Positions 10,669-40,487 are shown, numbered from the stretch's first letter. The stretch is 40,487 nucleotides of DNA from Candidatus Omnitrophota bacterium (GCA_015233375.1 JADFXW010000005.1:541-41027), one strand, 5' to 3'. Translations and numbers: made by a program. Notes: a model not told the origin generated them from the letters alone.

Positions 10669-10971
10669 TTAAAGAACACCTGCTAATCCCTTATCTTCAA
10701 TGATGTGCAGTAGCTTTAAGGCCGTTCCTGAGGGCTTCTTATCGCCCTGTTCCCACTTCTGGACTGTGCGCACGCTGGTATTAATAAACCTGGCTAATGC
10801 TGCTTGGCTTAATTTTAGCTTCCTACGTAACCTGGAAATGGATTTAGGAGTATAGGGCTTTACTTCTAAAGCCAATGCTCTAACTTCTTTAAGGGTTATT
10901 TCATTAATTGAACCCAGCTTATAAAGATCCTCCATTGATTCTAAGACCATATTTTTAATACTGTTTTCCAT
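10669..10971 (-). CDS. XRE-family HTH antitoxin (HigA/YiaG-like)
   Basis: LSQAALARFINTSVRTVQKWEQGDKKPSG helix-turn-helix; 5 nt downstream of the toxin. Confidence 0.9.
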   Translation of the reverse strand: MENSIKNMVLESMEDLYKLGSINEITLKEVRALALEVKPYTPKSISRLRRKLKLSQAALARFINTSVRTVQKWEQGDKKPSGTALKLLHIIEDKGLAGVL

Positions 10972-10976
10972 AGATC

Positions 10977-11354
10977 TTATTCTCCCGGTTTTAAAATCTT
11001 AAAAAATTTCTTTTGTTGAATACCTTGGGCTATTATCCCATCCGTTGAATCCTGATAACCGTCCGATAATTTATGGAGAAAATTAATTTCTGAACTGCTT
11101 AAATTACTTTGGTGACTTTTTTCGAACCCGTAACAAAAAATTAATTTTTTGCCCTTTTGATAAAACAATATCGTCCGTGTTCCTGCGCTTTTTCCTCGAC
11201 CAGCTAATGCAATGCGTTTTTTAAATAAATGATTCCCCAGATCAGCTTCAAATAACCCACTCTCAAATTCACTAACAGCATCTAAAAGAACGTTGTCTGT
11301 AATTCCGTGTTTTCTAGCCCAACGTGCAAAATATTTATTTTTTAAATAATTCAT
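10977..11354 (-). CDS. RelE/ParE-family type II toxin
   Basis: ADLGNHLFKKRIALAGRGKSAGTR..YGFEK signature. Start ATG 11354 lies downstream of the promoter. Confidence 0.9.
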   Translation of the reverse strand: MNYLKNKYFARWARKHGITDNVLLDAVSEFESGLFEADLGNHLFKKRIALAGRGKSAGTRTILFYQKGKKLIFCYGFEKSHQSNLSSSEINFLHKLSDGYQDSTDGIIAQGIQQKKFFKILKPGE

Positions 11355-11377
11355 GGCCCTTTTAAATATCCATCGTG

Positions 11378-11406
11378 AGTATACCCCCAAGTACGATACA
11401 TGTCAA
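11378..11406 (-). promoter_or_regulatory. sigma70 promoter of the TA operon
   Basis: TTGACA (11401-11406), 17 nt, TATACT (11378-11383). Confidence 0.85.
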
Positions 11407-13750: not shown

Positions 13751-15868
13751 TTAACGATAAATTATAAAAAGGGCCACCAAACCTATTAATACCCCAAAAA
13801 ACAAAATTATTAAAGAATAATGAAAAAAATAGCGGCCAAAAGATCCAAAACGCAACACCACCTTTGATTCACCTGCGGGGACCCATAAACCCTTAAATGA
13901 ACCATTAGCCCTAAACAAATGGACTTCTTGGCCATTCACAAAAGCATGCCAATGGCTATGATAATTATCATTAATGACTAAAAACTCCTTATGAGACAAA
14001 TGCGTTTTTAAAATCCAGGTGTTTGAGTCGTGCTTCAAAACCGTCAATTCACCTAACGCCACAGGGTCAAAATCCGCGTTAAAGCTACGGGCCATATCAC
14101 CATGCATATTGTTCTGGATTCCCGCTTTCGCGGGAATGACAATATAAGAGGTATCCGCCCTTGGAACAAAGGCCAGATTAGCATGGGCTTTCATCGCATT
14201 TTGCAAATCAGTATAAAAATTGGGTGTTTCATCGTAAGGCTTCAGAATGTCATAAAAAATAAAGAGGTGTTGGCAATAACCATCAAACACCTCTGGATCA
14301 ATGTGATTAACCAGGTCCCCAAACCAATGGGAAGCATAATACAAATCAATTTTGTGTTTTCCTGTCACTTGATGAGTGTCCTCATAATGGGCAATAAATT
14401 TTTCTAATTGGAACAATTGTTTCTGTAAACTACTGTACACAGGAATTGACTGAATAAAAACAGCCAATAAAACCAACAAAAAACCAAGAAAACAGGAAAT
14501 CTTACGGTCATACAAAATCAATACTATAAAATAAATCAAACTCAATATAACAGCTAACCAATCAGTCCATAAAAGTCCTTGATGCGTTAATAAAAATAAA
14601 ACAAAAATCACATGAGCTGCAATGATAAAAAATAACCATTTTATTTTATGACCAGAAACCTCGATACACGAAAACAGGGATTTTAAAGCAGTCATGGCTA
14701 ATAATAAACCTGCGGGCAGTATTCCTAACCAAAAGAAATAATAAATGTTCCTGATAAATTTAAAACCCATGAGGTGTTCATACAAGAAGCGATGAAGACC
14801 TGAAGCTGTTGTAACCGTTACTAAAAAAAGCGCGAGAATATTAAACAACAAAAAGAAAATTAATTTGTTAACCCGTGCTGGTATAGTAACAAGTAAAATC
14901 AAGAAAAAGATAAACGGCAGGTAAATATCTCCCATGTCTAAATGAGCATGATCCGCAAAAAGTCGATCAAAGAAGCCATGGCTTATAAAATCTCCGCTTT
15001 TCACATGCTCCATGCTCACCGTCACTTCTGAAGCAGTTTTTGCCCCAGCATGCCGGTTTGGAAGAACAAATTCCCCAGCTTTCGAATCTTTATAAAAAAG
15101 AGCGCCAGGAACACATGCGGCTAATAAAAAAAACACACAAAACACGGAAAAAATTTTATTAATTTTAACAAAAGCCAGGCTGCCTTGCATAAACCCAACG
15201 AATTCTTTCCCATAAAACACCAAAACCGCCAAGATAAAAACAGTCAAAATCGTTATAAAGAAAAACGGGATATAGGTTGTGACCAACAACCCCAAGCATA
15301 AACACATCCCTAAAAAATGCCCCTTTTGAAAACGTTGAGCAAAACATAATAAAAAATAAAAAAACCAGACCACAGGAACAAAAATAATAATAATATAATT
15401 ATAAAAAATTTCCGTCGACCAAGAGGAATAAAGAAAAAGAAGATACGCTAAAAAGGCGCAAAAATGATCTTTTAAAAGAAGACGGGTTATCAAATACAAC
15501 GACCACCCTGCTAGAAAATAATAAAAACCTAGAAATATCAAATAGGCAAAAGAGCCGGGTAACCCAAACCCTTTTAAAATTAGTATTAGAATAAAAAATG
15601 GATTAACATCGCCCATCCTTCTTAAAAAGAAATCATTGGACGCCCCGTTAAACCAGGTCGGGTCCCATAATGGATAAACCCCACGACTTAAATTATCAGC
15701 ATAAAAACAAATATGGTTCGCGTAAGAGATAGCATCTTCATATAAAAGCAGGCGACCTGTAAAAAAATGCCAAAAACAAATCACCCATAAAATAAAGGGG
15801 AAAGATAAATAAAAAAATTCGTATCTGGAGGTGTGAGAGGAAAATTTATCAAGGAATGACTTAAACAT
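13751..15868 (-). CDS. YfhO-like polytopic membrane protein (GT-C-like)
   Basis: GVYPLWDP N-terminal motif; many TM helices; C-terminal DNYHSHWHAFVNG..RANGSFKGLWVPAG. Confidence 0.8.
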   Translation of the reverse strand: MFKSFLDKFSSHTSRYEFFYLSFPFILWVICFWHFFTGRLLLYEDAISYANHICFYADNLSRGVYPLWDPTWFNGASNDFFLRRMGDVNPFFILILILKGFGLPGSFAYLIFLGFYYFLAGWSLYLITRLLLKDHFCAFLAYLLFLYSSWSTEIFYNYIIIIFVPVVWFFYFLLCFAQRFQKGHFLGMCLCLGLLVTTYIPFFFITILTVFILAVLVFYGKEFVGFMQGSLAFVKINKIFSVFCVFFLLAACVPGALFYKDSKAGEFVLPNRHAGAKTASEVTVSMEHVKSGDFISHGFFDRLFADHAHLDMGDIYLPFIFFLILLVTIPARVNKLIFFLLFNILALFLVTVTTASGLHRFLYEHLMGFKFIRNIYYFFWLGILPAGLLLAMTALKSLFSCIEVSGHKIKWLFFIIAAHVIFVLFLLTHQGLLWTDWLAVILSLIYFIVLILYDRKISCFLGFLLVLLAVFIQSIPVYSSLQKQLFQLEKFIAHYEDTHQVTGKHKIDLYYASHWFGDLVNHIDPEVFDGYCQHLFIFYDILKPYDETPNFYTDLQNAMKAHANLAFVPRADTSYIVIPAKAGIQNNMHGDMARSFNADFDPVALGELTVLKHDSNTWILKTHLSHKEFLVINDNYHSHWHAFVNGQEVHLFRANGSFKGLWVPAGESKVVLRFGSFGRYFFHYSLIILFFGVLIGLVALFIIYR
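14114..14140. repeat. dRS3/RPE4-like palindrome inside a CDS
   Basis: CTGGATTCCCGCTTTCGCGGGAATGAC matches ATTCCC-N8-GGGAAT; translated in frame as VIPAKAGIQ. Confidence 0.85.
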
Positions 15869-28346: not shown

Positions 28347-29393
28347 TTACCTGATATCTTTAATATGCTCTTCGGTGTATCTGATTATCTGGCGCATCAT
28401 ATCAACGGATTCTACAGGATATTTTCCTGCAGCCGTTTCCGCGGAAAGCATTAAAAAATCAGAACCATCCAAAAGAGCATTGGCCACATCTGTCACTTCC
28501 GCGCGGGTCGGCCTTAAATGCTCTGTCATGCTTTCTAACATTTGCGTTGCGGTTATCACAATTTTCTTCATGCGGTTACATTTTTGGATAAGCATCTTTT
28601 GAATGACAGCTATCTCATAAATGGGCAGACAAACACCCATATCGCCCCGCGCAATCATTATCCCATCAGAAACAGACATGATTTCATCAATATTTTTAAT
28701 ACCCTGCTTGTTCTCGATTTTAGCAATGATCTGACAGCCAGGACGCCGGTCCTTGACAGAATCCCTAAATTTCAAGATATCCTCCTTACTCCTGACAAAG
28801 GACTGGGCAATATAATCCACCTTGTTTTTAACACAAAATTCTATGTTCACCTTATCCTTATCCGTCAACCCGCTAAATTTCAGATCAATCTCTGGAATAT
28901 TGATCCCCTTATGCTCTTTTAAAACACCTGGGACAATCACTTCTGCCTTAAGAGAGCCCTTGTTGCCTGAAATAACCTTAATCGCGATAAGCCCATCATC
29001 AATATAAATCAAAGTACCCTTGCGAATATCCCTTAGATCCCCTTGATAGTCCAGAGGCACAACACCTTTGGTACAAAGACCTGGCTCATTAGTTAATATA
29101 AGCGTTTGCTTTTTCTTTAACAGGATATCACCTGGAAGCTTCCCAATCCTGACCCTAAAACCTTCCAAGTCACCTAATATTTTGACCCCAGAAGAGGACA
29201 GGGCCCTTGTAAAGCCTGGGCCTGTCCCCTTGTTTAAAGTCCTTATCAAATTAATATTTTTCGTATGTTGACCAAGATGGCCATGAGAAAAATTAAGACG
29301 GGCCACATCCATACCCGCCAAGATCATCCCTTTGAGAACGGTTTGTGTGTTGCTTGCTGGTCCAATCGTACAAATAATGCGTGTTTTGGCCAT
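28347..29393 (-). CDS. pyk: Pyruvate kinase lacking the C-terminal regulatory domain
   Basis: IICTIGPAS, ARLNFSHG, IIAKIEN, MIARGDMG, ATQMLESM, PTRAEVTDVANA, MLSAETA; ends at 348 aa. Confidence 0.93.
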   Translation of the reverse strand: MAKTRIICTIGPASNTQTVLKGMILAGMDVARLNFSHGHLGQHTKNINLIRTLNKGTGPGFTRALSSSGVKILGDLEGFRVRIGKLPGDILLKKKQTLILTNEPGLCTKGVVPLDYQGDLRDIRKGTLIYIDDGLIAIKVISGNKGSLKAEVIVPGVLKEHKGINIPEIDLKFSGLTDKDKVNIEFCVKNKVDYIAQSFVRSKEDILKFRDSVKDRRPGCQIIAKIENKQGIKNIDEIMSVSDGIMIARGDMGVCLPIYEIAVIQKMLIQKCNRMKKIVITATQMLESMTEHLRPTRAEVTDVANALLDGSDFLMLSAETAAGKYPVESVDMMRQIIRYTEEHIKDIR

Positions 29394-29412: not shown

Positions 29413-32400
29413 TTAGATTACTGATAAAAACCTTCGGATGTTTTGAATACGATATATTGTATCAATAACTGGAGTAAAACCTGGATAATTTTGGTAGCGT
29501 TGGATCATGGCAGCATCAAAACCTGATTGGGCTTGGGCAGCCATTCTATTGAGGTCTATCATTCTTGGGCTCAAATCTATACCACCAGGACTGGCCATGG
29601 CAGAGCTCTTTAACTTGACGCCTAACTTTCGGCTAGGTAATCTTTTATTCCCATCTATCTTTCGACCATTCAGATCAACCCATTGACCTGTCTGAGCGTC
29701 CCGTATTAAATGACATTGCTCCTCCCATTTGCGCCTATCAACATTCCACTGTAACTGATATTTTTCTACAGAAACAAATTTACCTTTCTTAGAATCCCAT
29801 CGAAAGGCACAAGTTTTCACAATAGTGGAATCATATCTCGGATATCCATAAAAAATAACCAATGGACCCCCTTCTTGAGACCTGACAAATGCTTCTGCCC
29901 TCTGTAAACCACCACCCACTTCCATATACCCATCCTTTTGTTTCCATATTTTTGTATTATCCACATCGTTTGGTAATGGCACAATGCCTCTCATATATCC
30001 TCTGTTTAAATTACTTTTTGTCAGCCATGAGTCAAATTTAATCCAACGCCCTTTTGGGTCCTTATACCCTTCTCTGAATTCTTGAGCTATCTTTTCGCAA
30101 AGCTTCTGGTCATCTGTTATCTGATATATCAATTGTTCTTTCTGTTTATCCCAGAACCATACAGATCTCATCACTTCCTTACCTTTTCTGTATTTAACAA
30201 AAGTTATCTCCATTTGACCATTATTATTAACAATACCTATTTGGCCCTCCTGCAAGTGATCACCCGCCTTCACATACATCCTTGGCATCATTTGACCATT
30301 GGGTAAGGGGAGCCCAAGAACATCTCCTTTTTCTAAATAACTCAACGGCACGAATTTGTCTAATCTGAACCATACTTGAGTTGAGCTTTGATACGCCTCC
30401 AGCATGTCCTTTTGTATCCTTGACTTCTCTTCATCTTTTGGCTGATATACTAATTGCTTTTTAGTATTGTCCCAGAACCAGACAGATCTCATCACTTCCT
30501 TACCATCCCTGTAATTAACGAAAGTCATTTCGATTTGACCATTATTATTAACAATACCCATCACACCTTCCTGTAAATTGTCACCAGCCTTCACATATGT
30601 CCTTGGCATCATTTGACCATTTGGTAATGGTATCCCAAGAACATCTCCTTTTTTTAAATAACTCAACGGCACGCGCTCATCCAACTTAAACCATTGTTGA
30701 GTAAAACCTTTGTAAGCTCTTAAAATAGCTCTTTCAATTTGGACTTGTTTTTTATCTTTTTGATATTTAAATCGTCCTGCTCTTTTAAGCCAAAGCCATT
30801 TTGATTGAGCATGCACCTTTGATCCTTTAAATCCGATGATGGTCATTTCTATCCGTCCATTCCCATTATTATCAATAACCACTTCAACATCTTCCAAGTC
30901 ACAACCTACTTGCATAGAATTAGTGGTCTTTGTTCTATACCACAAGTTGCCATTGGGAAGCGGTGTAGCCGGTTTTATAAAGCCTTGTTTTAAGGATGAC
31001 TCTCCTATCCACTGGCCTATTCTGAATCTACAACTCCCTTTCTTAAGGTAAGCATTCCTAAATTTTGTTTCAATCTCTTGGTATTGGAATTGCCCCTGGC
31101 CTTTATTCCATAACCACTGCGATAATGACGCCCTTTCTTGACCAATCAATCCATAAACCGTCATCGTGATACGCCCATTTCCAGCATTATCAATAACCAC
31201 TTCCATATCATCTAAACCTTCTCCAACCTTCATGTCCCGACTTGTTTCTTCTTTCGTCCATAATGAGCCATCAGGCAAAGGCATATCTGGCATACATCCT
31301 TTTAATAAAGAAACAGGGGAAACCCTGTCTTTGACTCTAAAAGTCCTCAACCCCACTTCTCTATAAGCTGTTTTAAATTCATCCTCAAGTGACATGGGCG
31401 TTTCTTTTTCTATAACTGTTATCTTATCAGCCTGCTGCTTATGAACAAATCTCTCAATGTTATTATCCCACCGATAAGCGCAACTATGAAATCCACCATC
31501 AAGAAAACCTAAAAAAACAATTATGGGAACACCGCCTAAATCCGTAACAATAGCTCTTGAGGGTATAAAAACATTTCCCACATCACTATAGAGTTCTTTG
31601 ATTTGCAGGGAGGTTTTATTAGGTAATGGGATTAAAATTTCTAAATCAGCTTCTACTAAATCAATAGATACTCCAGCCGCGGTTTGATATCCATTTTCAA
31701 ATAACTCGCTGATCGTTTTTATTCGCTGTTCCTTAACAGCCTCCTTTTTATCTTGGCTTGAAACAACGTCACTTTGCCCATCTTTTTCTTCAGTCGATAA
31801 GACTTCTGGCCTCGCTTGTTCCTCTTGTTCTTCAAGACCACCGCTGCGTATCTCAGGAACCTCATTTTTAATATTTTCTGATGTACCCGCCTCTTTCTGA
31901 TTTGGTGGATTCACAGGCGCATCTTGTTGTGGACTTCTTTTCTGACGTTGTTTTTCTGAATTTTTATGTTTTACACATTTAATTTGAAAATTTCCATAAT
32001 AGGTAACCTCACCGCCTCCTTTAAACTTCACGCGATAGCCTTGCCCCAAATCAGGATAATCAGGATTTTGTTCAATCACTTCAATAATCTTCCCATAACG
32101 TTGTCCAATTAAAACCTCATCTCCAGCTTCCAATTCATCATCATCACTAAATTTAACAAACCCTGGGACTGCCGTTTCTATGCTTCTCTGTGAAGATTTA
32201 AGCCTTCTCGCCTTTTTACCCTTTTTAGTCCTACCTCTCTCTAAAGTCTTGTCTGCCAAAACAACTTCTTTCTGTCTTTCAGGTATTTTGACCTGACTCT
32301 GTGCTTTCTTATCAGGCATTGGAACATGAGGGACTTGAATGTCTATATCTGGAATGGGCCTGCTATCTATCCCTTCAATAGAGAGAAGATCAAATTTTCC

Positions 32401-34308
32401 TTTTATGGGGTTCCATAACCATTGACTTTGTCCTGTTTGATGTCCATTCTTAACCCCAACAATAGTTCTTTCTATATGATGGGGATTTCTTAAAACCTCT
32501 AATAATGCCTTGAACACCTGCTTATCTTTAACAATTTCTTCAATCTTATCTTCATCAATTAATCCGGGATCAACAAAAACCTGTCCTCCAACCCTGACCA
32601 TATAACCTTGAGATATTAATTGCTCAAAAACCATAATTCCTGCAGAACGACCCTGCAAAGATCTCAAGGCATCAAAAATATCACTTGTTTCAACAACACC
32701 AGACCCTCCTATCGTATGTTCAATAATCACGTGGGCGTTCGTTAACCCTTGGCCTACCTCCATATATTCTTGACTCAAAAGTTTCCTCCCATTAGGTAAC
32801 AAACAACCAGGTTTTAAATACCCTGCCATTAAAAGATCTTTTTCAAGCCATTCGGTTAATTCTATTTTAGCAGTTCCAGGAACTGTATAGGCCAGCCTCA
32901 ACGCATTTCTTATACTTATATCTACGTTTCTTTTTATCTTATTTCTTTCTTCTTGATGTAATACTTCTTCTTGGGGTATTTCATTAGTCTCTGAAGAATC
33001 TATAGGGACTTTTATAATACCACTTCTTCTCGAACGATAAGTCATCACCACTCCATTTCTCTCAACCTCATATACCGCTAAACCAGCGAGTGGCCCTTCC
33101 TTCTCAGAAGGCAGCTCTGACTTAATCTTCCATGGCGTCCCCTGGATTAAAATCAAATCCCCAGGATTTATCGTTTGATATTGGGGACCTTGACTCTCTT
33201 GTGCTGGTGAAACCAATCTTACCTTCATGCCAAAACTTTCTTTTTCAGGCACGGCCATGGCTCCATCTTCCCTATCCAGTGTTATTTTCTCAAAACCTGA
33301 AATCCCGCCTGAAAAATATTTTCTGGGAATACGAAGACCGTTGGTTTTGTTGATATCCTCCTTGATGTAATTAAAAACACCCTTCTGATAGGCCTTAATA
33401 TAACGCTCATAAATTTGTTCCTTTATTGTCTTATCTTCAATATCAACGCCTTTTATCTTGCCCTTACCCACATAAACCTTGGCCAATAAAGTCTTTGTAA
33501 TAACATCCCTGTACCATTTTGCTAAAATGGCGGCATAATAAATTTGACGTAAATGAGAAAAATTCTTGCCCTCGTTAACCTCATGTTCGATGGCCGGTAA
33601 GATGATTTGACGAATAAGTTGGGAAGTAGAATGGTGAATATTGTTTTTGTGATGAGAAAACGCCAAATAATCCTCTTCAAGCATCACCTTCAATCGAGCT
33701 TCAGTCACATAAACAGCATGGCCTTTTTCATAAATTTTTGCTTGAGCAGGCACGATCCAAACCTTGTTAAAACAATTAAGCGGGATATCATGGGTACCAA
33801 AACGCTTTGAGGCTTCTTCATAAATCTTGTCCCAAAATTCCTTACCCAAAGCTTTTTCTGGATAAATAAGAGAGGCTGTCAATTGCTTAAGCAGATAATC
33901 CTGGGCTAACATGTCTCGTCCCAGATCCGTATTACCTAATTCATTGGGGATGACCCTGTTATGCTCATAGGGCGATAAATTGACCCATAAATCTGATGCT
34001 TTGACAGTCAGAGCAGCTAAGAAGTACCTCACCATGCGCCGGCCTTCTTCTTTTATTGTGCTTTGATACACTCGAGTGCTGCCTGAATCTAATATGAAAT
34101 CAAAATCAAATGGTTTGTCAGGGAAGGTTATCATCCCCTTTAACAGCACAGGGACAAAATCAGAAGATAGATAAACCTGACTGCCTACAGATGGCAAGGC
34201 GTTTAGAAATAGATTTTGAGCAAAGGCCTGTCTTGGACTAAGAAGCAAGGAACCGCTTAATAGGACACACAGAATCTTTCGAGCTAAAGATTTTATATGA
34301 TATTTCAT
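29413..34308 (-). CDS. Large exported modular protein, paralog 1 (conserved N-domain, ~106-aa repeat cargo, GGIDL C-module)
   Basis: Signal peptide ending AFA-Q; WVNLSPYE / GRDMLAQDYLLKQLTASL / FNKVWI / YQKGVFNYIK / YFSGG (33304-33318); GGIDL (29572-29586). Confidence 0.85.
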   Translation of the reverse strand: MKYHIKSLARKILCVLLSGSLLLSPRQAFAQNLFLNALPSVGSQVYLSSDFVPVLLKGMITFPDKPFDFDFILDSGSTRVYQSTIKEEGRRMVRYFLAALTVKASDLWVNLSPYEHNRVIPNELGNTDLGRDMLAQDYLLKQLTASLIYPEKALGKEFWDKIYEEASKRFGTHDIPLNCFNKVWIVPAQAKIYEKGHAVYVTEARLKVMLEEDYLAFSHHKNNIHHSTSQLIRQIILPAIEHEVNEGKNFSHLRQIYYAAILAKWYRDVITKTLLAKVYVGKGKIKGVDIEDKTIKEQIYERYIKAYQKGVFNYIKEDINKTNGLRIPRKYFSGGISGFEKITLDREDGAMAVPEKESFGMKVRLVSPAQESQGPQYQTINPGDLILIQGTPWKIKSELPSEKEGPLAGLAVYEVERNGVVMTYRSRRSGIIKVPIDSSETNEIPQEEVLHQEERNKIKRNVDISIRNALRLAYTVPGTAKIELTEWLEKDLLMAGYLKPGCLLPNGRKLLSQEYMEVGQGLTNAHVIIEHTIGGSGVVETSDIFDALRSLQGRSAGIMVFEQLISQGYMVRVGGQVFVDPGLIDEDKIEEIVKDKQVFKALLEVLRNPHHIERTIVGVKNGHQTGQSQWLWNPIKGKFDLLSIEGIDSRPIPDIDIQVPHVPMPDKKAQSQVKIPERQKEVVLADKTLERGRTKKGKKARRLKSSQRSIETAVPGFVKFSDDDELEAGDEVLIGQRYGKIIEVIEQNPDYPDLGQGYRVKFKGGGEVTYYGNFQIKCVKHKNSEKQRQKRSPQQDAPVNPPNQKEAGTSENIKNEVPEIRSGGLEEQEEQARPEVLSTEEKDGQSDVVSSQDKKEAVKEQRIKTISELFENGYQTAAGVSIDLVEADLEILIPLPNKTSLQIKELYSDVGNVFIPSRAIVTDLGGVPIIVFLGFLDGGFHSCAYRWDNNIERFVHKQQADKITVIEKETPMSLEDEFKTAYREVGLRTFRVKDRVSPVSLLKGCMPDMPLPDGSLWTKEETSRDMKVGEGLDDMEVVIDNAGNGRITMTVYGLIGQERASLSQWLWNKGQGQFQYQEIETKFRNAYLKKGSCRFRIGQWIGESSLKQGFIKPATPLPNGNLWYRTKTTNSMQVGCDLEDVEVVIDNNGNGRIEMTIIGFKGSKVHAQSKWLWLKRAGRFKYQKDKKQVQIERAILRAYKGFTQQWFKLDERVPLSYLKKGDVLGIPLPNGQMMPRTYVKAGDNLQEGVMGIVNNNGQIEMTFVNYRDGKEVMRSVWFWDNTKKQLVYQPKDEEKSRIQKDMLEAYQSSTQVWFRLDKFVPLSYLEKGDVLGLPLPNGQMMPRMYVKAGDHLQEGQIGIVNNNGQMEITFVKYRKGKEVMRSVWFWDKQKEQLIYQITDDQKLCEKIAQEFREGYKDPKGRWIKFDSWLTKSNLNRGYMRGIVPLPNDVDNTKIWKQKDGYMEVGGGLQRAEAFVRSQEGGPLVIFYGYPRYDSTIVKTCAFRWDSKKGKFVSVEKYQLQWNVDRRKWEEQCHLIRDAQTGQWVDLNGRKIDGNKRLPSRKLGVKLKSSAMASPGGIDLSPRMIDLNRMAAQAQSGFDAAMIQRYQNYPGFTPVIDTIYRIQNIRRFLSVI
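30121..30700 (-). repeat. Recent intragenic tandem duplication, 321-bp period
   Basis: CCAGAACCA at 30151/30472, CTGATATA at 30121/30442, CCCAAGAACATCTCCTTT at 30313/30634. Confidence 0.9.
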
Positions 34309-34374
34309 CGTATTTATTATTTTAAATCAGAATAAAGATGAGGAATTATACAACATATTAATATTTTGTATATA

Positions 34375-36969
34375 TTAATTTGTCTTATAATCAAACACAG
34401 AAACACCAAAAGTGGATGATATATCAAGAAGGCCAATATGGAGGATAATAGGCACGATTTTTTTCACGCCTTGACGCTTCATCTTCATCAATAAAGCTTT
34501 ATTAACGGAAACATGAATTTGATTATGCTGGTCTCTCTGGACTGAAAGGACCGCATCTTCTGACTTTAAGTCAATACCACCTTCTGGATTAGGCTGCCTG
34601 TCTGCTGCTTCGCTTCGCAGATAAGATGAGCCTAAAAGAAACCCATATACCTCATCCATATGATACCTATCGCCTTGATCTAAATAAAAATCTAAAGAAT
34701 GGGAAGACTTTATCAGGTCTATCACATTTATCAAAAGAGCCTTTTGCCTTTCATACTCTCTTATCTGATGATGTGCTGTTTGATACCTGATACGCTCTTC
34801 TAAACCTGTCCCAAAATTCTTATAAAGATTATAAAGAACATCCGCAAAGGATACCGACACAAAATCGCCTGACTTAAAATGAGTTAGATAATCACCCGTT
34901 TTATATTGACTATAATAATAACTGTAAACGTAAGCCATCCAATAATGCCGTACAATTGGGTCAATCGGCCTTCTTACCCACTGCTCAAACGTGTTAAAAT
35001 ATTTCCTAAAGGCAATAACAGCATTCACTCTTTCTTCAATATAATCCCTTTGATAGTAGAATGACCCTTCTCGCAGGTGTCTTGCTAAACCCCAATGTCC
35101 AGGAACATATCTATGGCGTTGATATTTCCCTAGATACCTTTCAAAAACCTTCTCATTTGATCCAAAATCATCTGGAAGAAGGTCTAAATATTCCATAATA
35201 ATATAGGCCGCTTCATCGATATATACAGGCTGTTTACTGGTTTCTTGAATAAGTTGTATCAAAGGGACAACTTCATCAACCATGGGCACTCGGCGCTGAC
35301 CTTTGCCTAAAGAATCCCTGGAAACACCTGCCTTGGTTTTTTGATTGAAATTAAAATGTTCCATGAGAGCTGTTAAAACCCTTGAGTTTCTTATCTTATT
35401 TTCTTGATTGTCTGGATCTGCGGCAATAGCAATCCCTTCAAGATCTGATATCAAACCTGATAAAGACGTCTGGTCAAAAGCTGAAATCCGCTGCAACGCA
35501 TTTTGAGCAGCCCTGATTTTCTCTAATGACTCAAAAATCCCAGAAGGGTCTAACGCCAGATAGGCAGATTGGTATTTGGATAATATAGGCTGCAATATAC
35601 TGCCCCTCTTTCTTGTTAACCGAGAAATTTTGAGGGCAATTTCGTATTCCTTTTGTTGAAAATCTCTTCTAAGACGCCTGATTTCCTCTACAATAGCTGC
35701 CTTTTTTTGGTGAATTTGTTCGCTCCATTGAATGATTTCCGGCTCAAGAGGGGTTAAGACAAGCCTTTCATAAGGCCTCTCTTTTTCTTTGACCATTTGA
35801 GGCGATGCCTGAATCTCTTCTGCGACCATACCAGGATTGGCAAAAACCTTAACAGCTAAACAACCGTCTAATTGAGGGATAACGGATGCTAACTGCGCAT
35901 TGCTTCTTAATAAAAATTCTTTCATTCCCCCATCATACCCGCCAGAAAAATATTGATGCGCTACCGGCACTTGAGTCTTTGGGTCAAACTCATCTTTGAT
36001 AAAATTAAAAACACCTTTTTGGTAGGCTTTTAAATATTGGTTATAAATAGCTTCATTGGTGGCCTTATCATTCTGATCAATCCCTTTCACCGTACTTTTA
36101 TTGGCATAGACCTGATTAAGTAAGGCTTGCTTTAAATGACGCTTAAACCAGACCGCTAATACCTGTGCATAAAAAATCTGGCGTAAGGTGGAAAAATTCT
36201 TGCCTTCATTGACTTCTTTTTCGATTTCAGGAAGAATAATTTGACGGATAATATTTGAACTCCCCCTAGCCCCCTCTTTCAAAAAAAGAGGGGGGATATT
36301 ATTGGTTTTAATGTCTTCTTGTTTAGCCAATGCAAGATAATCCTCTTCTAACATCACCTTCAAATGCCCACTGACGATAAACCCTGTTTGACCATGTTCA
36401 TACACACTTGCCTTTTGAGGGACTATCCATACTTTATTAAAGGTATTTACTGGTATTTGTGTTGACCCATATAATTCTTGAGCTTGTTTATAAATTTTGG
36501 CCCAAAATGTTTTTCCTAAAGAATTTTCAGGATACATCAAGGATGCAGTCAACTGCTTGAGCAAATAATCTTGGGCTAACAAGTCCCTGCCCATGACTGT
36601 TTGGCCCAGCGCTGTTGGTATAATCCTGTCTTTTTCATAGGGGCTTAAATTGACCCAAATATCCTTATCAGGCAGGGTTAAGGAAGCAAAAAAGTATCTG
36701 ACCATCCGTAACGCTTCCCTTTTCAATTCTTCCTTTGATGTCTTTGATTCACCAGGTGAAACAATAAAATCAAATAAAAAGGGATTGTTTTCATTAATGA
36801 TCACCCCTTTCATTAATGCAGGTTGAAACAAAGGACTTGCAGAAACCATGGTCCCTGCAACAGGTAAATCAGCAATAGACATAGCCATGCTCATAGAGCC
36901 CCCCGGCCCTGGCATAACCATGATTGATAAAATAACAAAATAAGTGAATATTCTTTTGAGTTTATTCAT
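34375..36969 (-). CDS. Exported modular protein, paralog 2 (unknown helical cargo)
   Basis: Same N-domain motifs; YFSGG (35938-35952); GGIDL (34567-34581). Confidence 0.85.
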   Translation of the reverse strand: MNKLKRIFTYFVILSIMVMPGPGGSMSMAMSIADLPVAGTMVSASPLFQPALMKGVIINENNPFLFDFIVSPGESKTSKEELKREALRMVRYFFASLTLPDKDIWVNLSPYEKDRIIPTALGQTVMGRDLLAQDYLLKQLTASLMYPENSLGKTFWAKIYKQAQELYGSTQIPVNTFNKVWIVPQKASVYEHGQTGFIVSGHLKVMLEEDYLALAKQEDIKTNNIPPLFLKEGARGSSNIIRQIILPEIEKEVNEGKNFSTLRQIFYAQVLAVWFKRHLKQALLNQVYANKSTVKGIDQNDKATNEAIYNQYLKAYQKGVFNFIKDEFDPKTQVPVAHQYFSGGYDGGMKEFLLRSNAQLASVIPQLDGCLAVKVFANPGMVAEEIQASPQMVKEKERPYERLVLTPLEPEIIQWSEQIHQKKAAIVEEIRRLRRDFQQKEYEIALKISRLTRKRGSILQPILSKYQSAYLALDPSGIFESLEKIRAAQNALQRISAFDQTSLSGLISDLEGIAIAADPDNQENKIRNSRVLTALMEHFNFNQKTKAGVSRDSLGKGQRRVPMVDEVVPLIQLIQETSKQPVYIDEAAYIIMEYLDLLPDDFGSNEKVFERYLGKYQRHRYVPGHWGLARHLREGSFYYQRDYIEERVNAVIAFRKYFNTFEQWVRRPIDPIVRHYWMAYVYSYYYSQYKTGDYLTHFKSGDFVSVSFADVLYNLYKNFGTGLEERIRYQTAHHQIREYERQKALLINVIDLIKSSHSLDFYLDQGDRYHMDEVYGFLLGSSYLRSEAADRQPNPEGGIDLKSEDAVLSVQRDQHNQIHVSVNKALLMKMKRQGVKKIVPIILHIGLLDISSTFGVSVFDYKTN
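36257..36295. repeat. Family A palindrome in frame within paralog 2
   Basis: GAACTCCCCCTAGCCCCCTCTTTCAAAAAAAGAGGGGGG, read on the minus strand as PPLFLKEGARGSS. Confidence 0.9.
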
Positions 36970-36978
36970 AATTGAGCT

Positions 36979-37977
36979 TTAACTTGTTTGCAGTCCTAAA
37001 ATTGGCAGAATGCTTAAAAGAGGTATAATACGAATAATATTCGCTACTACACCTGAAAATTTTCCACGTTGAAATTCAGCAATCATCGCAGGGTTAAATT
37101 TTATTTTAACACCTTGACCAACCCTCTCAATATCCAGCCCCGCCTTCTTAACCTTAAGGTCAATACCGCCAGGCACAAAATTCTCTTCTAAATGCCGAGC
37201 CTTTCCTATGTCACTTATATTCATGGCAAAATCTTGGGACCATTCAAGCTCAATTTTCAACTGATTCTTATCGAAACCTGCTAACCGAATAACATCATCT
37301 TCATCCATCATCAGAAGCCTCTTTACCACGTTCATTTCTTTTTCACCCGTATCTTCGCCTGTTTCTTGACTTAAAAGGACTTCTTTAGCCTTATTAAAGA
37401 CGGGTTTAATACGTTTGGAAACATCGACAATCTCATCCACCTTGGGGAATAAAACAGATCCAGATTTATCCCGATAACCATTTAACCGTGCCACATATTG
37501 CTGTTGAATAGACAAATCCCCTGGATTCATGACTTTTTCCATAAGCCGTTCGGTTGCATTGATAACAAAATCATCAAAATCTTCTATCCTCAATTGTTGA
37601 ATCTTCAAAAGACCGTCATCACCAAAAACAAAGTTTACAAATTCCTCCATCCCTTCAAAAGATTCAACCAGGCGTTTATCCTTATACATTAACTTATAAG
37701 CCAAAACAAAATCTTCGACATACCCCAACATTTTATCCGCATTAAAGAATAATCTTGCTTCTGGTGATTGAATTTCATCAAATGTCTTTAAAAGAAGATG
37801 ATTAATATCCCTGGAAATATCATGATCAATAGCCAAGTTATTCTGATTGTATACAATTTCCTGGGCTGCTGCCTGATTATACCGTGTCACCACACGTGAT
37901 CCAACCTGCATCTGGGCTGCGATTACGGGATTGGCTGAAAAATATTCACCTATCCCGGCCTTCCACAAAATGAACAA
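36979..37977 (-). CDS. C-terminal part of paralog 3 (frameshifted), carrying the GGIDL module
   Basis: No convincing start; overlaps the upstream ORF by 32 nt in another frame; GGIDL at 37156-37170. Confidence 0.75.
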   Translation of the reverse strand: MFILWKAGIGEYFSANPVIAAQMQVGSRVVTRYNQAAAQEIVYNQNNLAIDHDISRDINHLLLKTFDEIQSPEARLFFNADKMLGYVEDFVLAYKLMYKDKRLVESFEGMEEFVNFVFGDDGLLKIQQLRIEDFDDFVINATERLMEKVMNPGDLSIQQQYVARLNGYRDKSGSVLFPKVDEIVDVSKRIKPVFNKAKEVLLSQETGEDTGEKEMNVVKRLLMMDEDDVIRLAGFDKNQLKIELEWSQDFAMNISDIGKARHLEENFVPGGIDLKVKKAGLDIERVGQGVKIKFNPAMIAEFQRGKFSGVVANIIRIIPLLSILPILGLQTS

Positions 37978-40288
37978 ACGGGAGCCTGCCTAACTCATGA
38001 GCTAAAGCTACCGTGACGAGTTTATCTTGATCCATTTGTAATTTCATTTTCTGTGTATATAGTTGGGCAGAAGCCAAGCCACGCAGGACATGCCTTTGTC
38101 TATTCGTCAATGTTTTTGTCGAATCCTCTTTAACATGTACAAATGTTGGAAAACAGCCGCCGATATTCTTAAGCCTTACCCACCCCGAGGATGAACGAAT
38201 TTTCTCTGCTAATCCGGCGCTTGTCATAGAGGCACTGACCTCTTGTTTCTGACTAAGAAGCTCAGTTCTTCCTAAATGCAACAGTTTAGAAGTTATATTG
38301 TTTCTTATTTTAGCCAGTTGCGGTGATCCTTGAAGTCTCTCAAGAGCATCGTGGTCTAATATATTCCCAAAGCTTATATTGTTCCCGTACACCGATGCCT
38401 CCAGTACACCTTTCGAATCAAGATATAAATACGATTGATCATAGGAGGGAGTATCGTATGCTATTGTAAAATCGTTATCAAATTGTCTTCGTATAGCCTG
38501 ACACGCTTCAAAGTATGTTTCATAATCAATAAAATATGGATCCTTTTCTTCCGCATATAATTTAGCTGTTTTTCCTATTCTTTTATACCTGCTTATTTTC
38601 CAACGAAAATTCTGGAGACCTTGTCTTTGTTGCTCCATTAATTGACCGATTTTAGGAAGGTCTGCCAAATTTTTTGCCGAAGCCACGGTCAAAATTTGGG
38701 TCTTTAGATGAGGAAAATGTTGCTTAATCAATCCGATTGTACGCAAACCTGCTTCAAAAGTTCCCTGACGTCCACTGACTTGATCATTTTCAATATTATA
38801 ACCATTGATTGAAACAGAAAGAAAATCAATATTGGGTATAAGATCTAAAAATTTCCTCTCATTTAATAAAACGCTGTTTGTATAAAATAAAATCCGTAAT
38901 CCCTTTTCTTTGGCATATTTTACAAGATCTACTATATGAGAAACCATCAAGGGTTCTCCTCCAGTAATCGTTAAGGAGACAACCCCATTAGCCTGCATCA
39001 TATCAACCATTCTTTTATGTTCTTCAAGAGTCCCTTCCTGATCTGCCGCAAAATTGTCCTTCCAACATATAGAACAATCACGATTACATCTTTTTGTAAC
39101 CAAAAATTCCATTACCGGCGGCAATATCATTGCCGCATTAGACTTGCTTACAAACGTTTCAACGACAGCCATGGCCCCATTCACTGTTATTTGGTCTCCT
39201 GGAGTTGGCTTCTGTTCTGCTTCCAGGATACCAGAAGTCTTCATGGCTAATCCACCTGAGAAATATTTGCGTGAAATGAACTGTTTACTACCCTCATCCA
39301 TCTCTTCCTTAATATAATTAAAAACCCCCTTTTTGTACGCTTTTAAATACTCTTCATAAATTTTTTCCTTGACCCCAATATCATCAGATAAAACGCCACC
39401 GATTTTGGCTTTATTGCTATAAACCTGATTAAGCAAAGCATCTTTCAAAGCCAGCTTATACCATGAAGCCAAAATCATTGAATAAAACATCTGCCGCAAG
39501 GGTGCAAAATTCCGTCCTTGATTGACCTCTTTTTCAAGTTCAGGAATGATGATTTCGCGGATGATGTGACTGCCTATTTGATTGGTAGAGACGCCATAAA
39601 TAGCATCTCTGCGATGATAAAAATTGCCTTGATATTTTTTAAGAGAAAGATAATCCTCATCAAGCATCACCTTTAATTTTGCGCCAACCACATACACGGC
39701 GTTGTTATGTTCCAAAACCTTGGCCTTTTCTGCCACAATCCATACCTTGTTAAAAGTACTCACCAAAATTTCAGATGTGCCATATTTTGCCTGGGCCTTT
39801 GCATAAACCCTATTCCAAAACTCTTGGCCTAAATGTTTCTCAGGATAAATGAGGGACGCGGTTAATTGCTTTAAGATGTAGTCTTGGGCTAACATATCAC
39901 GCCCCAATCCTGTTTTTCCTAACTCGGTTGGAATCATCCTGTTTTTTTCATAAGGAGATAAATTAACCCATAAATCATCTTCTTTGATGGTCAATGAGGC
40001 CAAGAAATATTTAATAAGTTTTTCGGATTCAACCTTAAATTCATGCCTGTTCACTTTTAGACCGGAATTGCCCGTGTCTAGAATGAAATCAAATAGAAAT
40101 GGATTTTCAGAATGAACTTTCAAGCCTTTAATCAAAACTGGCTCGAAGGCAGGGCTTAAATTTACCATGGTCCCTGCAACAGGTAAATCAGCAATAGACA
40201 TAGCCATGCTCATAGAGCACACCGGCCCTGGCATAGCCATGATTGATAAAATAACAAAATAAATGAATATTTTTTTGAGTTTATTCAT
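37946..40288 (-). CDS. Paralog 3, N-terminal part: conserved N-domain, viperin-like radical SAM, start of HD-like domain
   Basis: Start MNKLKK (40288) matches paralog 2; YFSGG (39251-39265); CNRDCSIC (39065-39088), TGGEP, RWK; ALAHELGRLPF just before the stop. Confidence 0.8.
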   Translation of the reverse strand: MNKLKKIFIYFVILSIMAMPGPVCSMSMAMSIADLPVAGTMVNLSPAFEPVLIKGLKVHSENPFLFDFILDTGNSGLKVNRHEFKVESEKLIKYFLASLTIKEDDLWVNLSPYEKNRMIPTELGKTGLGRDMLAQDYILKQLTASLIYPEKHLGQEFWNRVYAKAQAKYGTSEILVSTFNKVWIVAEKAKVLEHNNAVYVVGAKLKVMLDEDYLSLKKYQGNFYHRRDAIYGVSTNQIGSHIIREIIIPELEKEVNQGRNFAPLRQMFYSMILASWYKLALKDALLNQVYSNKAKIGGVLSDDIGVKEKIYEEYLKAYKKGVFNYIKEEMDEGSKQFISRKYFSGGLAMKTSGILEAEQKPTPGDQITVNGAMAVVETFVSKSNAAMILPPVMEFLVTKRCNRDCSICWKDNFAADQEGTLEEHKRMVDMMQANGVVSLTITGGEPLMVSHIVDLVKYAKEKGLRILFYTNSVLLNERKFLDLIPNIDFLSVSINGYNIENDQVSGRQGTFEAGLRTIGLIKQHFPHLKTQILTVASAKNLADLPKIGQLMEQQRQGLQNFRWKISRYKRIGKTAKLYAEEKDPYFIDYETYFEACQAIRRQFDNDFTIAYDTPSYDQSYLYLDSKGVLEASVYGNNISFGNILDHDALERLQGSPQLAKIRNNITSKLLHLGRTELLSQKQEVSASMTSAGLAEKIRSSSGWVRLKNIGGCFPTFVHVKEDSTKTLTNRQRHVLRGLASAQLYTQKMKLQMDQDKLVTVALAHELGRLPFVHFVEGRDR
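39585..39612. repeat. GTAG-type REP in frame within paralog 3
   Basis: GTAGAGACGCCATAAATAGCATCTCTGC hairpin, read on the minus strand as RRDAIYGVST. Confidence 0.75.
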
Positions 40289-40323
40289 AAATAAATTTTG
40301 ATAATAAATATATAGACAGTGAG

Positions 40324-40352
40324 AGTATACCCGGTATGCAAGAAATAAGCAA
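40324..40352 (-). promoter_or_regulatory. Putative sigma70 promoter of the paralog array
   Basis: TTGCTT (40347-40352), 17 nt, TATACT (40324-40329); supports the start at 40288 over 40393. Confidence 0.6.
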
Positions 40353-40487
40353 ATTTGTTTATTTTTGAAAATTTTTTCTGGGGAAAATTTCATGCAACTG
40401 TATTTTTAAAAAATAAGAAAAAAGAGGAAATCAAATATGGTGGGATGATAGGAAATGTTCTAGAAACTGCTTGGTACCTTCTAATAA

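What the first reader, a model, noticed from the sequence alone, without database searches (positions are those of the whole stretch)
29413..40288. Tandem array of exported carrier-cargo proteins: constant N-domain (..YFSGG), swappable cargo, constant GGIDL tail
Seen: three co-oriented genes share a signal peptide and a ~340-aa domain (FDFI, YFxAxLT, WVNLSPYExxR, GRDxLAQDYxLKQLTASL, FNKVWI, EVNxGxNF, YxKGVFNxIK, YFSGG), plus a ~60-aa C-terminal module starting GGIDL. Between the constant ends the cargoes are unrelated: ~1230 aa of repeats, ~450 aa helical unknown, and radical SAM plus HD-like. Established: polymorphic toxins (RHS, CdiA, LXG) usually carry the variable part at the C-terminus with an adjacent immunity gene. 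Here the cargo is bracketed on both sides and no immunity ORFs intervene. Inference: an undescribed export/delivery or display chassis in which the N- and C-modules act together, possibly aimed at a host or prey cell if this is an Omnitrophota organism.
Basis: partly seen in the sequence, partly recalled or inferred. Interest (0 to 1): 0.9.

Follow-up and report, generated by a model that had tools for sequence, protein, structure and literature searches.

The report
Exported cargo proteins with clasping ends
Three neighbouring genes belong to a family of some 55-60 apparently exported proteins, about a ninth of this small Omnitrophota genome, in which a constant head and a constant tail that are predicted to clip together frame an ever-changing middle part, an arrangement that matches no described protein family.

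Summary
Three co-oriented minus-strand genes (29413-34308, 34375-36969, 36979-40288) share a Sec-type signal peptide, a ~310-aa N-domain and a ~60-aa GGIDL tail around unrelated middles. The third gene is split by a frame change, and its 'HD-like' part could not be verified.

They are a sample of a much larger family:
- About 55-60 copies make up 11.3% of this 1.76-Mb assembly.
- The family was found in 54 of 61 sampled genomes of the same order, but in only 5 of 81 sampled across the phylum.
- At least 4249 database proteins match the N-domain.

Head and tail are coupled. In a near-complete relative, 59 of 62 tails lie in the same open frame as an N-domain. None of the 76 sampled genomes without the head has the tail. 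A controlled complex prediction docks the GGIDL strand onto the head's invariant motifs (score 0.76, best control 0.00).

Cargo is swapped freely: 16 of 2775 pairs are related. It includes cytoplasm-type enzymes such as PGK, adenylate kinase, enolase, GGDEF and a viperin-like radical SAM. A new [NDST]-x-A-M motif marks both cargo borders.

Pfam, NCBIfam, PADLOC, PDB sequence and fold searches, and the papers searched, give no match to head or tail.

Export and N-tail docking are predictions; the route and the target are inferred. No expression data were available.

The parts
29413..34308 (-). Family gene 1 (1631 aa): signal peptide, N-domain, repeat cargo, GGIDL tail
34219..34308 (-). Gene 1 signal peptide (residues 1-30, ends AFA|Q)
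   Evidence: Read from the sequence; heuristic test
33304..34218 (-). Gene 1 N-domain (residues 31-335, ends YFSGG)
33256..33261 (-). Gene 1 border motif (AM of D-G-A-M), 15 residues after YFSGG
29731..32859 (-). Gene 1 cargo region holding at least 7 copies of a 107-aa repeat (residues 484-1526)
   Evidence: DNA repeats D2 and D6
29416..29601 (-). Gene 1 C-terminal module: S-A-M motif, then the GGIDL tail (residues 1570-1631)
34375..36969 (-). Family gene 2 (864 aa)
35938..36879 (-). Gene 2 N-domain (residues 31-344)
34582..35937 (-). Gene 2 cargo (residues 345-796): no family, no solved relative
34378..34581 (-). Gene 2 GGIDL tail (residues 797-864)
37946..40288 (-). Family gene 3, upstream ORF: signal peptide, N-domain (39251-40198), radical SAM cargo. 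The ORF is open up to 40393, but the likely start is the ATG at 40286-40288.
38342..39115 (-). Gene 3 radical SAM domain, viperin-like (residues 427-684 of the 815-aa ORF)
   Evidence: PF04055 at 5.4e-19. NF038283 at 81.8 bits, under its cut-off of 180. PADLOC pVip at 2e-26.
37946..37977 (-). Overlap of the two ORFs of gene 3; the reading frame changes by +1 somewhere in here
36979..37977 (-). Gene 3, downstream ORF (332 aa): rest of the cargo, D-F-A-M motif (AM at 37222-37227), GGIDL tail (36982-37170)

Best explanation
The three genes are members of a very large family restricted to one order of Omnitrophota.

Each protein has five parts: a cleavable Sec signal peptide; a ~310-aa alpha/beta N-domain with no solved or catalogued relative; a hypervariable middle of about 100 to over 5000 aa; a short [NDST]-x-A-M motif at each border of that middle; and a ~60-aa tail beginning GGIDL at the extreme C-terminus.

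Proposed mechanism:
1. The protein is threaded through Sec, N-terminus first.
2. The N-domain folds in the periplasm.
3. When the C-terminus emerges, its GGIDL strand docks into a pocket built from the N-domain's invariant motifs (FDFI, WVNLSPYE, AQDYxLKQ, FNKVWIVP, LRQ), by adding a strand beside the 152-165 hairpin.
4. The two constant ends thereby become one composite module that closes the protein around its cargo.
5. That module serves as the common handle for the next step. This could be retention or display on the envelope, or passage through one of the many secretin systems of these genomes. Any sequence inserted between the ends thus becomes an exported protein.
6. The cargo repertoire (cytoplasm-type enzymes, nucleotide-signalling and DNA-binding domains, repeats) suggests action on or in another cell.

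Shown here: the architecture, the coupling of head and tail, the family's taxonomic range, the cargo diversity and the signal-peptide features. Predicted: head-tail binding. Inferred: the export route, the role of the AM motifs and the target.
For: Scale:
- 80 N-domain matches in the own genome.
- A local HMM scan finds 71 ORFs with the head and 54 with the tail, including 22 complete ORFs with both. The tail lies 6-26 aa from the C-terminus in all 54.
- Family ORFs total 198,960 nt, 11.3% of the assembly.

Range:
- 54 of 61 genomes of the order, and 9 of 9 of the own family, the latter with 18-79 first-look candidates each.
- 5 of 81 genomes across the phylum.
- 4249 database proteins at E <= 0.001.

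Coupling:
- In genome G113, 59 of 62 tails lie in the same open frame as a head.
- In 80 other loci, 51 of 59 complete head ORFs carry the tail.
- The tail occurs in 3 of 81 phylum genomes, all of which have the head, and in 0 of the 76 without it.
- Head and tail identities co-vary (Mantel r 0.42; 0 of 999 permutations reach it).

Binding:
- Complex prediction gave score 0.76, best of 3 controls 0.00. That mark was reached by 58 of 80 solved complexes and 2 of 110 mismatched pairs; these counts hold only roughly because my own alignments were used.
- The runs agree in at least 53% of their contacts. The partner's pLDDT is at least 46.
- Tail residues 4-20 (GGIDL is 5-9) touch head residues 40-44, 75-85, 104-111, 152-165 and 224-239, which are the invariant motifs.
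- In AlphaFold2 the WVNLSPYE loop has pLDDT below 50 in the isolated head. In a full-length 573-aa member the corresponding blocks score 91 and 83 and the tail scores 77-88.

Export:
- 50 of 53 N-termini pass a crude signal-peptide test (basic residue, hydrophobic stretch, small-x-small), against 145 of 628 control ORFs.
- The tail is not membrane-helix-like (6 of 54).
- Secretin (PF00263) gave 7, 11 and 8 matches over the cut-off in G000, G113 and G093, a few of them short fragments. Omp85 is present in both near-complete relatives.

Cargo swapping:
- 16 of 2775 cargo pairs are related.
- 14 of the 15 most similar head pairs (82-93% identical) have unrelated cargo.

Border motif:
- AM occurs within 30 aa after the head in 42 of 53 proteins and within 30 aa before the tail in 31 of 53, against 5.8% expected.
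- It also holds in other genomes: 42 of 90 and 25 of 63 in the GTDB loci; 63 of 119 and 54 of 96 in database homologues.
Against: - Many cargoes need a cytoplasm. These include radical SAM (needs an Fe-S cluster, but the signal is Sec-type with no twin arginine), GGDEF, HTH_8, RNA polymerase alpha CTD, hexokinase, PGK, adenylate kinase and enolase. Export of such domains is odd unless they act in another cell.
- No secretion, processing or immunity gene is conserved next to family genes. The largest neighbour cluster occurs in 7 of 80 loci.
- The window's own surroundings are housekeeping genes.
- Signal peptides were judged by a home-made heuristic, not by SignalP.
- The docking is a model. 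The partner's pLDDT fell below 50 in one run, and contacts could not be read from the AlphaFold2 summary.
- The model cannot tell docking within one protein from docking between proteins.
- Tail-bearing database proteins often lack the head: 5 of 27 at >= 1000 aa, 5 of 10 at 700-1000 aa and 20 of 22 at 450-700 aa.
- One complete 400-aa ORF of this genome (C151:8426-9628) has the tail but neither head nor signal peptide.
- Many family genes are split by frame changes or in-frame stops.
- No expression or protein data exist.
Confidence: 0.5

Rival explanations
1. Head-to-tail polymer. The tail of one protein docks into the N-domain of the next, as in donor-strand exchange in pili. The ~60 different subunits then chain into a heteropolymeric fibre or coat on the cell surface, with the cargoes looped out.
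For: - The predicted interface is strand addition by a terminal peptide to an acceptor domain.
- Each protein has exactly one donor and one acceptor.
- Tail-only proteins could act as chain caps.
- The acceptor loop is disordered without the tail.
Against: - Nothing distinguishes docking within one protein from docking between proteins.
- AlphaFold2 gives a confident tail in a single chain.
- No usher, chaperone or sortase-like gene is conserved nearby.
- Head and tail identities co-vary. This fits a matched pair within one protein at least as well as promiscuous chaining.
Confidence: 0.2
2. Self-processing pro-proteins. The N-domain is an enzyme (a protease or transpeptidase) whose substrate is the tail and/or the [NDST]-x-A-M border motifs. 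Head and tail are cut off and the cargo is released.
For: - The head has many invariant polar residues (N, S, E, T, D, Y, K, R, Q) clustered where the tail docks.
- The border motifs flank the cargo on both sides at far above chance and sit near background frequency (1.25x) inside cargo.
Against: - No similarity to any peptidase or other enzyme family by sequence or fold.
- AM motifs are absent from some members, such as gene 2.
Confidence: 0.12
3. Not exported. The N-terminal hydrophobic segment is an uncleaved membrane anchor. The head-tail module tethers extra copies of cytoplasmic enzymes and regulators to the inner membrane as a scaffold.
For: - The cargoes are mostly cytoplasm-type domains.
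- A 2026 preprint on Omnitrophota giant proteins reads many of them as membrane-anchored with cytoplasmic domains (passages seen).
Against: - Basic residues precede the hydrophobic stretch, and small-x-small sites (AxA|Q) follow it in 50 of 53 N-termini. This is the layout of a cleaved Sec signal that puts the rest outside.
- The hydrophobic stretch is short.
- The related genomes keep ordinary standalone adenylate kinase and PGK.
Confidence: 0.1
4. A polymorphic toxin or effector system of the Rhs/CdiA/LXG kind, with the N-domain as the trafficking part.
For: - A constant trafficking-like head with swappable cargo.
- Some cargoes are of conflict types: viperin-like radical SAM, macro, NUDIX, M23 peptidase.
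Against: - The variable part is not C-terminal; a constant tail follows it in 59 of 62 cases.
- No immunity-like ORF follows. Gaps between the window genes are 66 and 9 nt, and there is no conserved neighbour.
- No Rhs, LXG, CdiA or other toxin-trafficking Pfam hit.
- Many cargoes are housekeeping-type enzymes or repeats.
Confidence: 0.04

Closest known systems
Type IX secretion cargo proteins with a conserved C-terminal domain (Bacteroidota). The comparison is from recall; membership was tested below.
   Same: Sec signal peptide, highly varied cargo, and a conserved C-terminal sorting module at the very end. There are dozens of paralogous substrates per genome.
   Different: - No match to the T9SS tail models in Pfam or NCBIfam.
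- The tail is shorter (~60 aa).
- Every member also carries a ~310-aa N-domain that is predicted to bind the tail.
PE/PPE families of mycobacteria (from recall)
   Same: A conserved N-terminal domain serves as a secretion handle in front of very variable sequence. The family is expanded to roughly a tenth of the coding capacity.
   Different: - PE/PPE proteins have no Sec signal.
- They use type VII secretion.
- They have no constant C-terminal tail.
- There is no sequence or fold relation to this family.
Polymorphic toxins (Rhs, CdiA, LXG)
   Same: A constant delivery part combined with swappable cargo. Near-identical constant parts carry unrelated cargo.
   Different: - Here the cargo is internal and bracketed.
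- There are no immunity genes.
- No family hits.
- Most cargo is not toxin-like.
Donor-strand complementation in chaperone-usher and type V pili (from recall)
   Same: A terminal strand of about 15 residues is predicted to complete or extend a sheet of an acceptor domain.
   Different: - No usher or chaperone genes nearby.
- Docking may occur within one chain.
DUF1598 (PF07643), uncharacterised, mainly Planctomycetota
   Same: The Atlas model of gene 2's N-domain aligns to a DUF1598-bearing cluster over 250 residues, with TM 0.58 by query and 0.42 by target.
   Different: - The Pfam model (84 positions) hits no N-domain in the genome.
- It is not among the 25 families shown, of 31, for 82 N-domains at E <= 10.
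- No paper in the library mentions it.

Membership tests
Radical SAM superfamily (cargo of gene 3) | Match to PF04055 over its cut-off, and a CxxxCxxC cluster motif | tested here: met
   69.4 bits against a cut-off of 29.5; CxxxCxxC at residues 436-443
Prokaryotic viperin (NF038283; PADLOC pVip) | Score over NCBIfam's equivalog cut-off (180 bits) | tested here: not met
   81.8 bits, E 4.4e-23, covering 3-261 of 281 positions. PADLOC pVip scores 91 bits, but that library has no cut-off. The domain is viperin-like only.
   No Pfam or NCBIfam hit at E <= 0.1 in either ORF outside the radical SAM part. The gene is split just there.
DUF1598 (PF07643) | Match to the Pfam model | tested here: not met
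   Best hit in the whole genome is E 0.16, outside any N-domain. Not among the families shown for 82 N-domains at E <= 10.
T9SS C-terminal sorting domain, and other catalogued C-terminal sorting signals (PEP-CTERM, GlyGly-CTERM, LPXTG and similar) | Match of the C-terminus to the curated Pfam or NCBIfam models | tested here: not met
   No family covers the tail of P0001, P0002 or P0004 at E <= 0.1
Type I secretion / RTX substrates | Nonapeptide Ca-binding repeats before an uncleaved C-terminal signal, and no Sec signal | tested here: not met
   No HemolysinCabind or other repeat hit. 50 of 53 members have a Sec-type N-terminus.
Polymorphic toxin systems (Rhs, CdiA, LXG) | Variable toxin at the extreme C-terminus, followed by a cognate immunity gene | tested here: not met
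   A constant tail is at the C-terminus. Gaps between the window genes are 66 and 9 nt. No recurrent neighbour in 80 loci.
Sec-dependent secretory proteins (cleavable type I signal peptide) | Basic n-region, hydrophobic h-region, and small-x-small cleavage site | tested here: met
   50 of 53 N-termini pass, against 145 of 628 control ORFs, by a crude script. The sequences are shown. No dedicated predictor was run, and cleavage is not shown.
[not shown]
   [not shown]

The most novel reading that the evidence does not exclude
The head-tail clasp is a previously unknown general protein-delivery chassis. A host-dependent or predatory Omnitrophota lineage exports some 40-80 different proteins per genome through Sec and a secretin system. 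These are extra copies of glycolytic and nucleotide enzymes, signalling and DNA-binding domains, and a viperin-like radical SAM. They are held closed by N-domain/GGIDL docking. On arrival in or on the prey cell, the cargo is released by cleavage at the [NDST]-x-A-M border motifs. This would be an effector arsenal on the scale of Legionella's, but with a physical carrier and cassette-like cargo exchange.
Probability: 0.2. Interest if true: 0.95.

Novelty: categorically new. Interest (0 to 1): 0.82.

Why it matters
Omnitrophota are widespread, uncultured, ultra-small bacteria thought to depend on or prey upon other cells. How they act on their partners is unknown.

- **Scale.** A single protein architecture takes up about 11% of the genome, recurs in 54 of 61 sampled genomes of one order, and carries hundreds of different cargoes. 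It is probably central to that lifestyle.
- **A testable handle.** The family can be followed by antibody or mass spectrometry against one conserved domain. The predicted 15-residue peptide-domain interaction can be tested in vitro.
- **A new motif.** The [NDST]-x-A-M border motif may mark processing sites.
- **Possible use.** If the clasp is a generic export handle, it would be a new secretion principle and a possible tool for exporting arbitrary proteins.
- **Practical warning.** These repeats break assemblies: 36 of the 90 family ORFs in this genome run off a contig end. They also leave many split gene calls.

Tried and rejected
- **DUF1598.** The PF07643 model was run against the own genome and all Pfam models against 82 N-domains at E <= 10. 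Neither gave support. No paper mentions the family.
- **PDB sequence searches.** P0004 and P0002 gave only chance-level hits.
- **PADLOC.** Nothing matched outside the radical SAM domain.
- **Conserved neighbours or partner machinery.** Clustering 450 non-family ORFs from 80 loci gave no cluster in more than 7 loci.
- **Fused enzymes as sole copies.** In 5 genomes of the family, adenylate kinase and PGK are ordinary standalone genes and no fused copy was found. The fused forms seen come from other, unplaced metagenome records.
- **Alignment A7** (full query plus separate head and tail rows). MAFFT laid the tails onto the head, so I discarded it and built A8 from full-length rows after a local trial.
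- **Read-level check of the frame change, and expression.** The look-up of sequencing runs listed no run and no RNA holder.
- **Literature.** Searches found no description of this family.
  - Passages only were seen of 10.64898/2026.06.07.730766, 10.1101/2023.11.21.568195 and PMC13153191.
  - PMC10066038 had none of six search terms.
  - Supplements were not seen and could list such a family.
- **Tail-only proteins in the 1.84-billion-protein library.** I could not tell real N-less genes from fragments and split genes, because no genomic context was available.

Full report
**1. What is at the coordinates**

The minus strand holds three consecutive reading units:
- 29413-34308 (1631 aa);
- 34375-36969 (864 aa);
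- 37946-40393 (815 aa), overlapping 36979-37977 (332 aa) in another frame.

The gaps between them are 66 and 9 nt.

All three begin with a basic, then hydrophobic, then small-x-small N-terminus. A ~310-aa domain follows, 52-54% identical between copies, with 70% mean column identity.

All three end in a ~60-aa module that starts with an invariant GGIDL. For the third unit the head and a radical SAM domain sit in the upstream ORF and the tail in the downstream ORF. The unit is therefore one family gene whose frame changes by +1 within 37946-37977. With no reads available, I cannot tell a sequencing error from a pseudogene or a programmed shift (one search listed no run).

The three middles are unrelated (best BLAST E 0.24):
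- Gene 1 has at least 7 copies of a 107-aa repeat found nowhere else in the genome.
- Gene 2 has no family and no solved relative.
- Gene 3 has a radical SAM domain (PF04055, 69.4 bits). It resembles prokaryotic viperins but stays far under NCBIfam's cut-off (81.8 against 180 bits). PADLOC pVip scores 2e-26.

The 'HD-like' part got no model hit.

**2. The three genes are the tip of a very large family**

The N-domain profile finds 80 matches in the window's own genome (1.76 Mb, 209 contigs, 64% complete).

My ORF and HMM scan of the laid genome finds 71 ORFs with the head and 54 with the tail; 35 ORFs carry both.
- 22 complete ORFs have a full head and the tail.
- 13 tail-bearing ORFs are cut at the 5' end by a contig end.
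- 10 ORFs with a full head are cut at the 3' end.

In all 54, the tail ends 6-26 residues before the stop.

Of the 90 family ORFs, 36 run off a contig end, so the family is a main cause of the fragmented assembly. Together they make 66,320 aa, or 198,960 nt, 11.3% of the assembly.

Outside this genome:
- 4249 proteins of 475-1512 aa match at E <= 0.001.
The record titles name Candidatus Omnitrophota, or 'uncultured Planctomycetales' MAGs.
- In sampled genomes the head occurs in 5 of 81 across the phylum and in 54 of 61 of the same order. It occurs in 9 of 9 genomes of the same family, with 18-79 first-look candidates each.

**3. Head and tail belong together**

- In G113, a 94%-complete relative in about 10 contigs, 59 of 62 tail matches lie in the same open frame as a head match. 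Two of the other three lie downstream of a head in a broken frame (68 of the 77 head rows were entered, see Tried and rejected).
- In 80 loci from other MAGs, 51 of 59 complete head ORFs carry the tail.
- There were five complete 'tail-only' ORFs. Three lie downstream of a head ORF, one starts at a contig end, and one (L062:3703-5682) is separated from its head by two in-frame stops.
- Across the phylum sample the tail occurs in 3 of 81 genomes, all of which have the head. None of the 76 head-less genomes has it.
- Head and tail identities co-vary across 75 proteins (Mantel r 0.42; 0 of 999 permutations reach it).

Against this:
- The tail profile finds 5906 cluster representatives among 1.84 billion proteins (2836 at E <= 1e-10). 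The tail is at the extreme C-terminus in all 150 listed.
- Many of the 150 lack the head. The head is present in 22 of 27 at >= 1000 aa, 5 of 10 at 700-1000 aa, 2 of 22 at 450-700 aa, 1 of 43 at 200-450 aa and 0 of 48 under 200 aa.
- Most are probably fragments or pieces of split genes. Without genomic context I cannot show it.
- One complete 400-aa ORF of this genome (C151:8426-9628) has the tail without head or signal peptide.

**4. Predicted docking**

I gave complex prediction the head alignment (82 rows) and the tail alignment (50 rows).
- The score was 0.76, and the best of 3 controls was 0.00.
- That mark was reached by 58 of 80 solved complexes and 2 of 110 mismatched pairs. These counts hold only roughly because my own alignments were used.
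- The runs agree in at least 53% of their contacts. The partner's pLDDT is at least 46, under 50 in one run.

Tail residues 4-20, with GGIDL at 5-9, touch head residues 40-44 (FDFI), 75-85 (WVNLSPYE), 104-111 (AQDYxLK), 152-165 (the FNKVWIVP strand) and 224-239 (the LRQ helix). These are the invariant columns of the head alignment. The most conserved parts of both modules therefore meet at one predicted interface.

Indirect agreement comes from AlphaFold2.
- The isolated head (pLDDT 76, pTM 0.76) has its WVNLSPYE loop below pLDDT 50.
- In a full-length 573-aa member, those blocks score 91 and 83, and the tail scores 77-88 with two short strands. The cargo, which has no alignment depth, stays below 50.
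- I could not read contacts from that summary.

Neither method can tell docking within one chain from docking between chains.

**5. Export**

All N-termini printed show a basic stretch, a hydrophobic run, and sites such as AFA|Q, VYA|Q or VFA|Q a few residues before the conserved L-P-x-P-G. A crude three-part test passes 50 of 53, against 145 of 628 control ORFs. The tail is not membrane-helix-like (6 of 54).

These genomes have many secretin genes. PF00263 gave 7, 11 and 8 matches in G000, G113 and G093, a few of them short fragments. Omp85 is present in both near-complete relatives. Sec followed by a secretin is therefore an available route, but nothing links the family to it. No neighbour is conserved; the largest cluster occurs in 7 of 80 loci. 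The window's flank is housekeeping: pyruvate kinase, a two-component system, ArgRS, RecJ and ATP synthase.

**6. Cargo**

Of the 63 cargo segments of this genome, most have no Pfam family. The ones that do include GGDEF, several methyltransferases, GDSL lipase, hexokinase, TPR, RNA polymerase alpha CTD, HTH_8, protein kinase, GH77 and M23.

Database members carry full-length PGK, adenylate kinase, enolase, transaldolase, macro, NUDIX with aldo-keto reductase, proline dehydrogenase and a carrier-protein domain. In each case the domain sits between head and tail. In five genomes of the family, the ordinary adenylate kinase and PGK are separate, standalone genes.

Cargo is exchanged freely:
- Only 16 of 2775 pairs among 75 complete proteins share cargo at E <= 1e-5.
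- 14 of the 15 pairs with the most similar heads (82-93% identical, some within one MAG) have unrelated cargo.
- None of the 120 best head homologues shares cargo with the three window genes.

**7. A new border motif**

The dipeptide AM, usually in the context [NDST]-x-A-M, occurs at both cargo borders.
- Within 30 residues after the head: 42 of 53 proteins.
- Within 30 residues before GGIDL: 31 of 53 proteins.
- Expected: 5.8% (binomial P 4e-42 and 5e-25).
- Inside cargo the frequency is 1.25 times background.

The pattern holds in other genomes: 42 of 90 and 25 of 63 in the GTDB loci, and 63 of 119 and 54 of 96 in database homologues. Genes 1 and 3 of the window have the motif at both borders; gene 2 has none. 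The motifs may be processing sites or hinge or recognition elements. This is inference.

**8. Comparison with what is known**

The searched literature has no paper with YFSGG or WVNLSPYE. The five papers holding 'GGIDL' are unrelated. The Omnitrophota papers I could query do not describe the family in the passages seen.

Functionally the nearest things, all from recall, are:
- T9SS cargo with a C-terminal domain;
- PE/PPE proteins;
- polymorphic toxins;
- donor-strand complementation in pili.

Each shares one principle and fails on defining features (see Membership tests).

For context, one Omnitrophota predator is reported to pass molecules into its archaeal prey, with open cytoplasmic contact (passages of PMC13153191). 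Whether that organism has this family was not tested.

**9. Verdict**

The best reading is a lineage-specific, Sec-exported carrier-cargo family whose two constant ends form one composite module by peptide-in-pocket docking. Its route and purpose are still inferred. Rivals are a head-to-tail polymer, self-processing pro-proteins, an inner-membrane scaffold and a polymorphic toxin system. The toxin reading is the weakest.

Noticed in passing
G000:C143:21442-21945, C125:12996-13493, C131:2751-3254, C152:8012-8503, C147:3558-4073, C186:5255-5764, C60:88-303; also G113 and G093: Unusually many secretin genes. PF00263 matches over the cut-off number 7 in this 64%-complete genome, 11 in G113 and 8 in G093, a few of them short fragments. 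Some lie beside family genes, for example G113:C2:611939-612442 right after a family tail at 611578-611766. With about 60 family genes per genome this could be chance.
   Followed up: partly
L062:2113-5682: A family gene in another Omnitrophota MAG is interrupted by two in-frame stop codons between head and cargo (…F*L*M…). Split family genes are frequent in all the genomes looked at. Real decay, sequencing errors and recoding were not told apart.
   Followed up: partly
L037/L038 (one MAG) and L060/L065 (one MAG): N-domains that are 91-93% identical within one genome sit on unrelated cargo. This suggests gene conversion of the head, or recent cassette exchange of the middle.
   Followed up: no
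G000:C142:1-318 and G000:C187:1-210: Two contigs begin with nearly the same ~200-300-nt sequence just upstream of tail-bearing ORFs. It may be the end of a repeat or mobile element that breaks the assembly.
   Followed up: no
window 13751-15868 (-): A 705-aa, Phe-rich polytopic membrane protein without any Pfam family. It coincides with the AT-skew spike (0.274) and GC dip (0.353) of the window.
   Followed up: partly
window 28347-29393 (-): The pyruvate kinase gene directly downstream of family gene 1 encodes only the barrel domain (348 aa; PF00224 positions 2-328 of 328). No C-terminal domain was reported.
   Followed up: no
window 10977-11390 (-) and 10669-10971 (-): A RelE-family toxin gene (PF06296, 1.1e-35) with a 100-aa ORF immediately downstream, set among housekeeping genes. 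It is a likely toxin-antitoxin pair. The small ORF was not searched.
   Followed up: no
G000:C151:8426-9628: A complete 400-aa ORF has [NDST]-x-A-M motifs and a GGIDL tail but no signal peptide and no N-domain. It lies directly after another family gene's stop. It has no Pfam family. It is either a remnant or a genuine tail-only client.
   Followed up: partly
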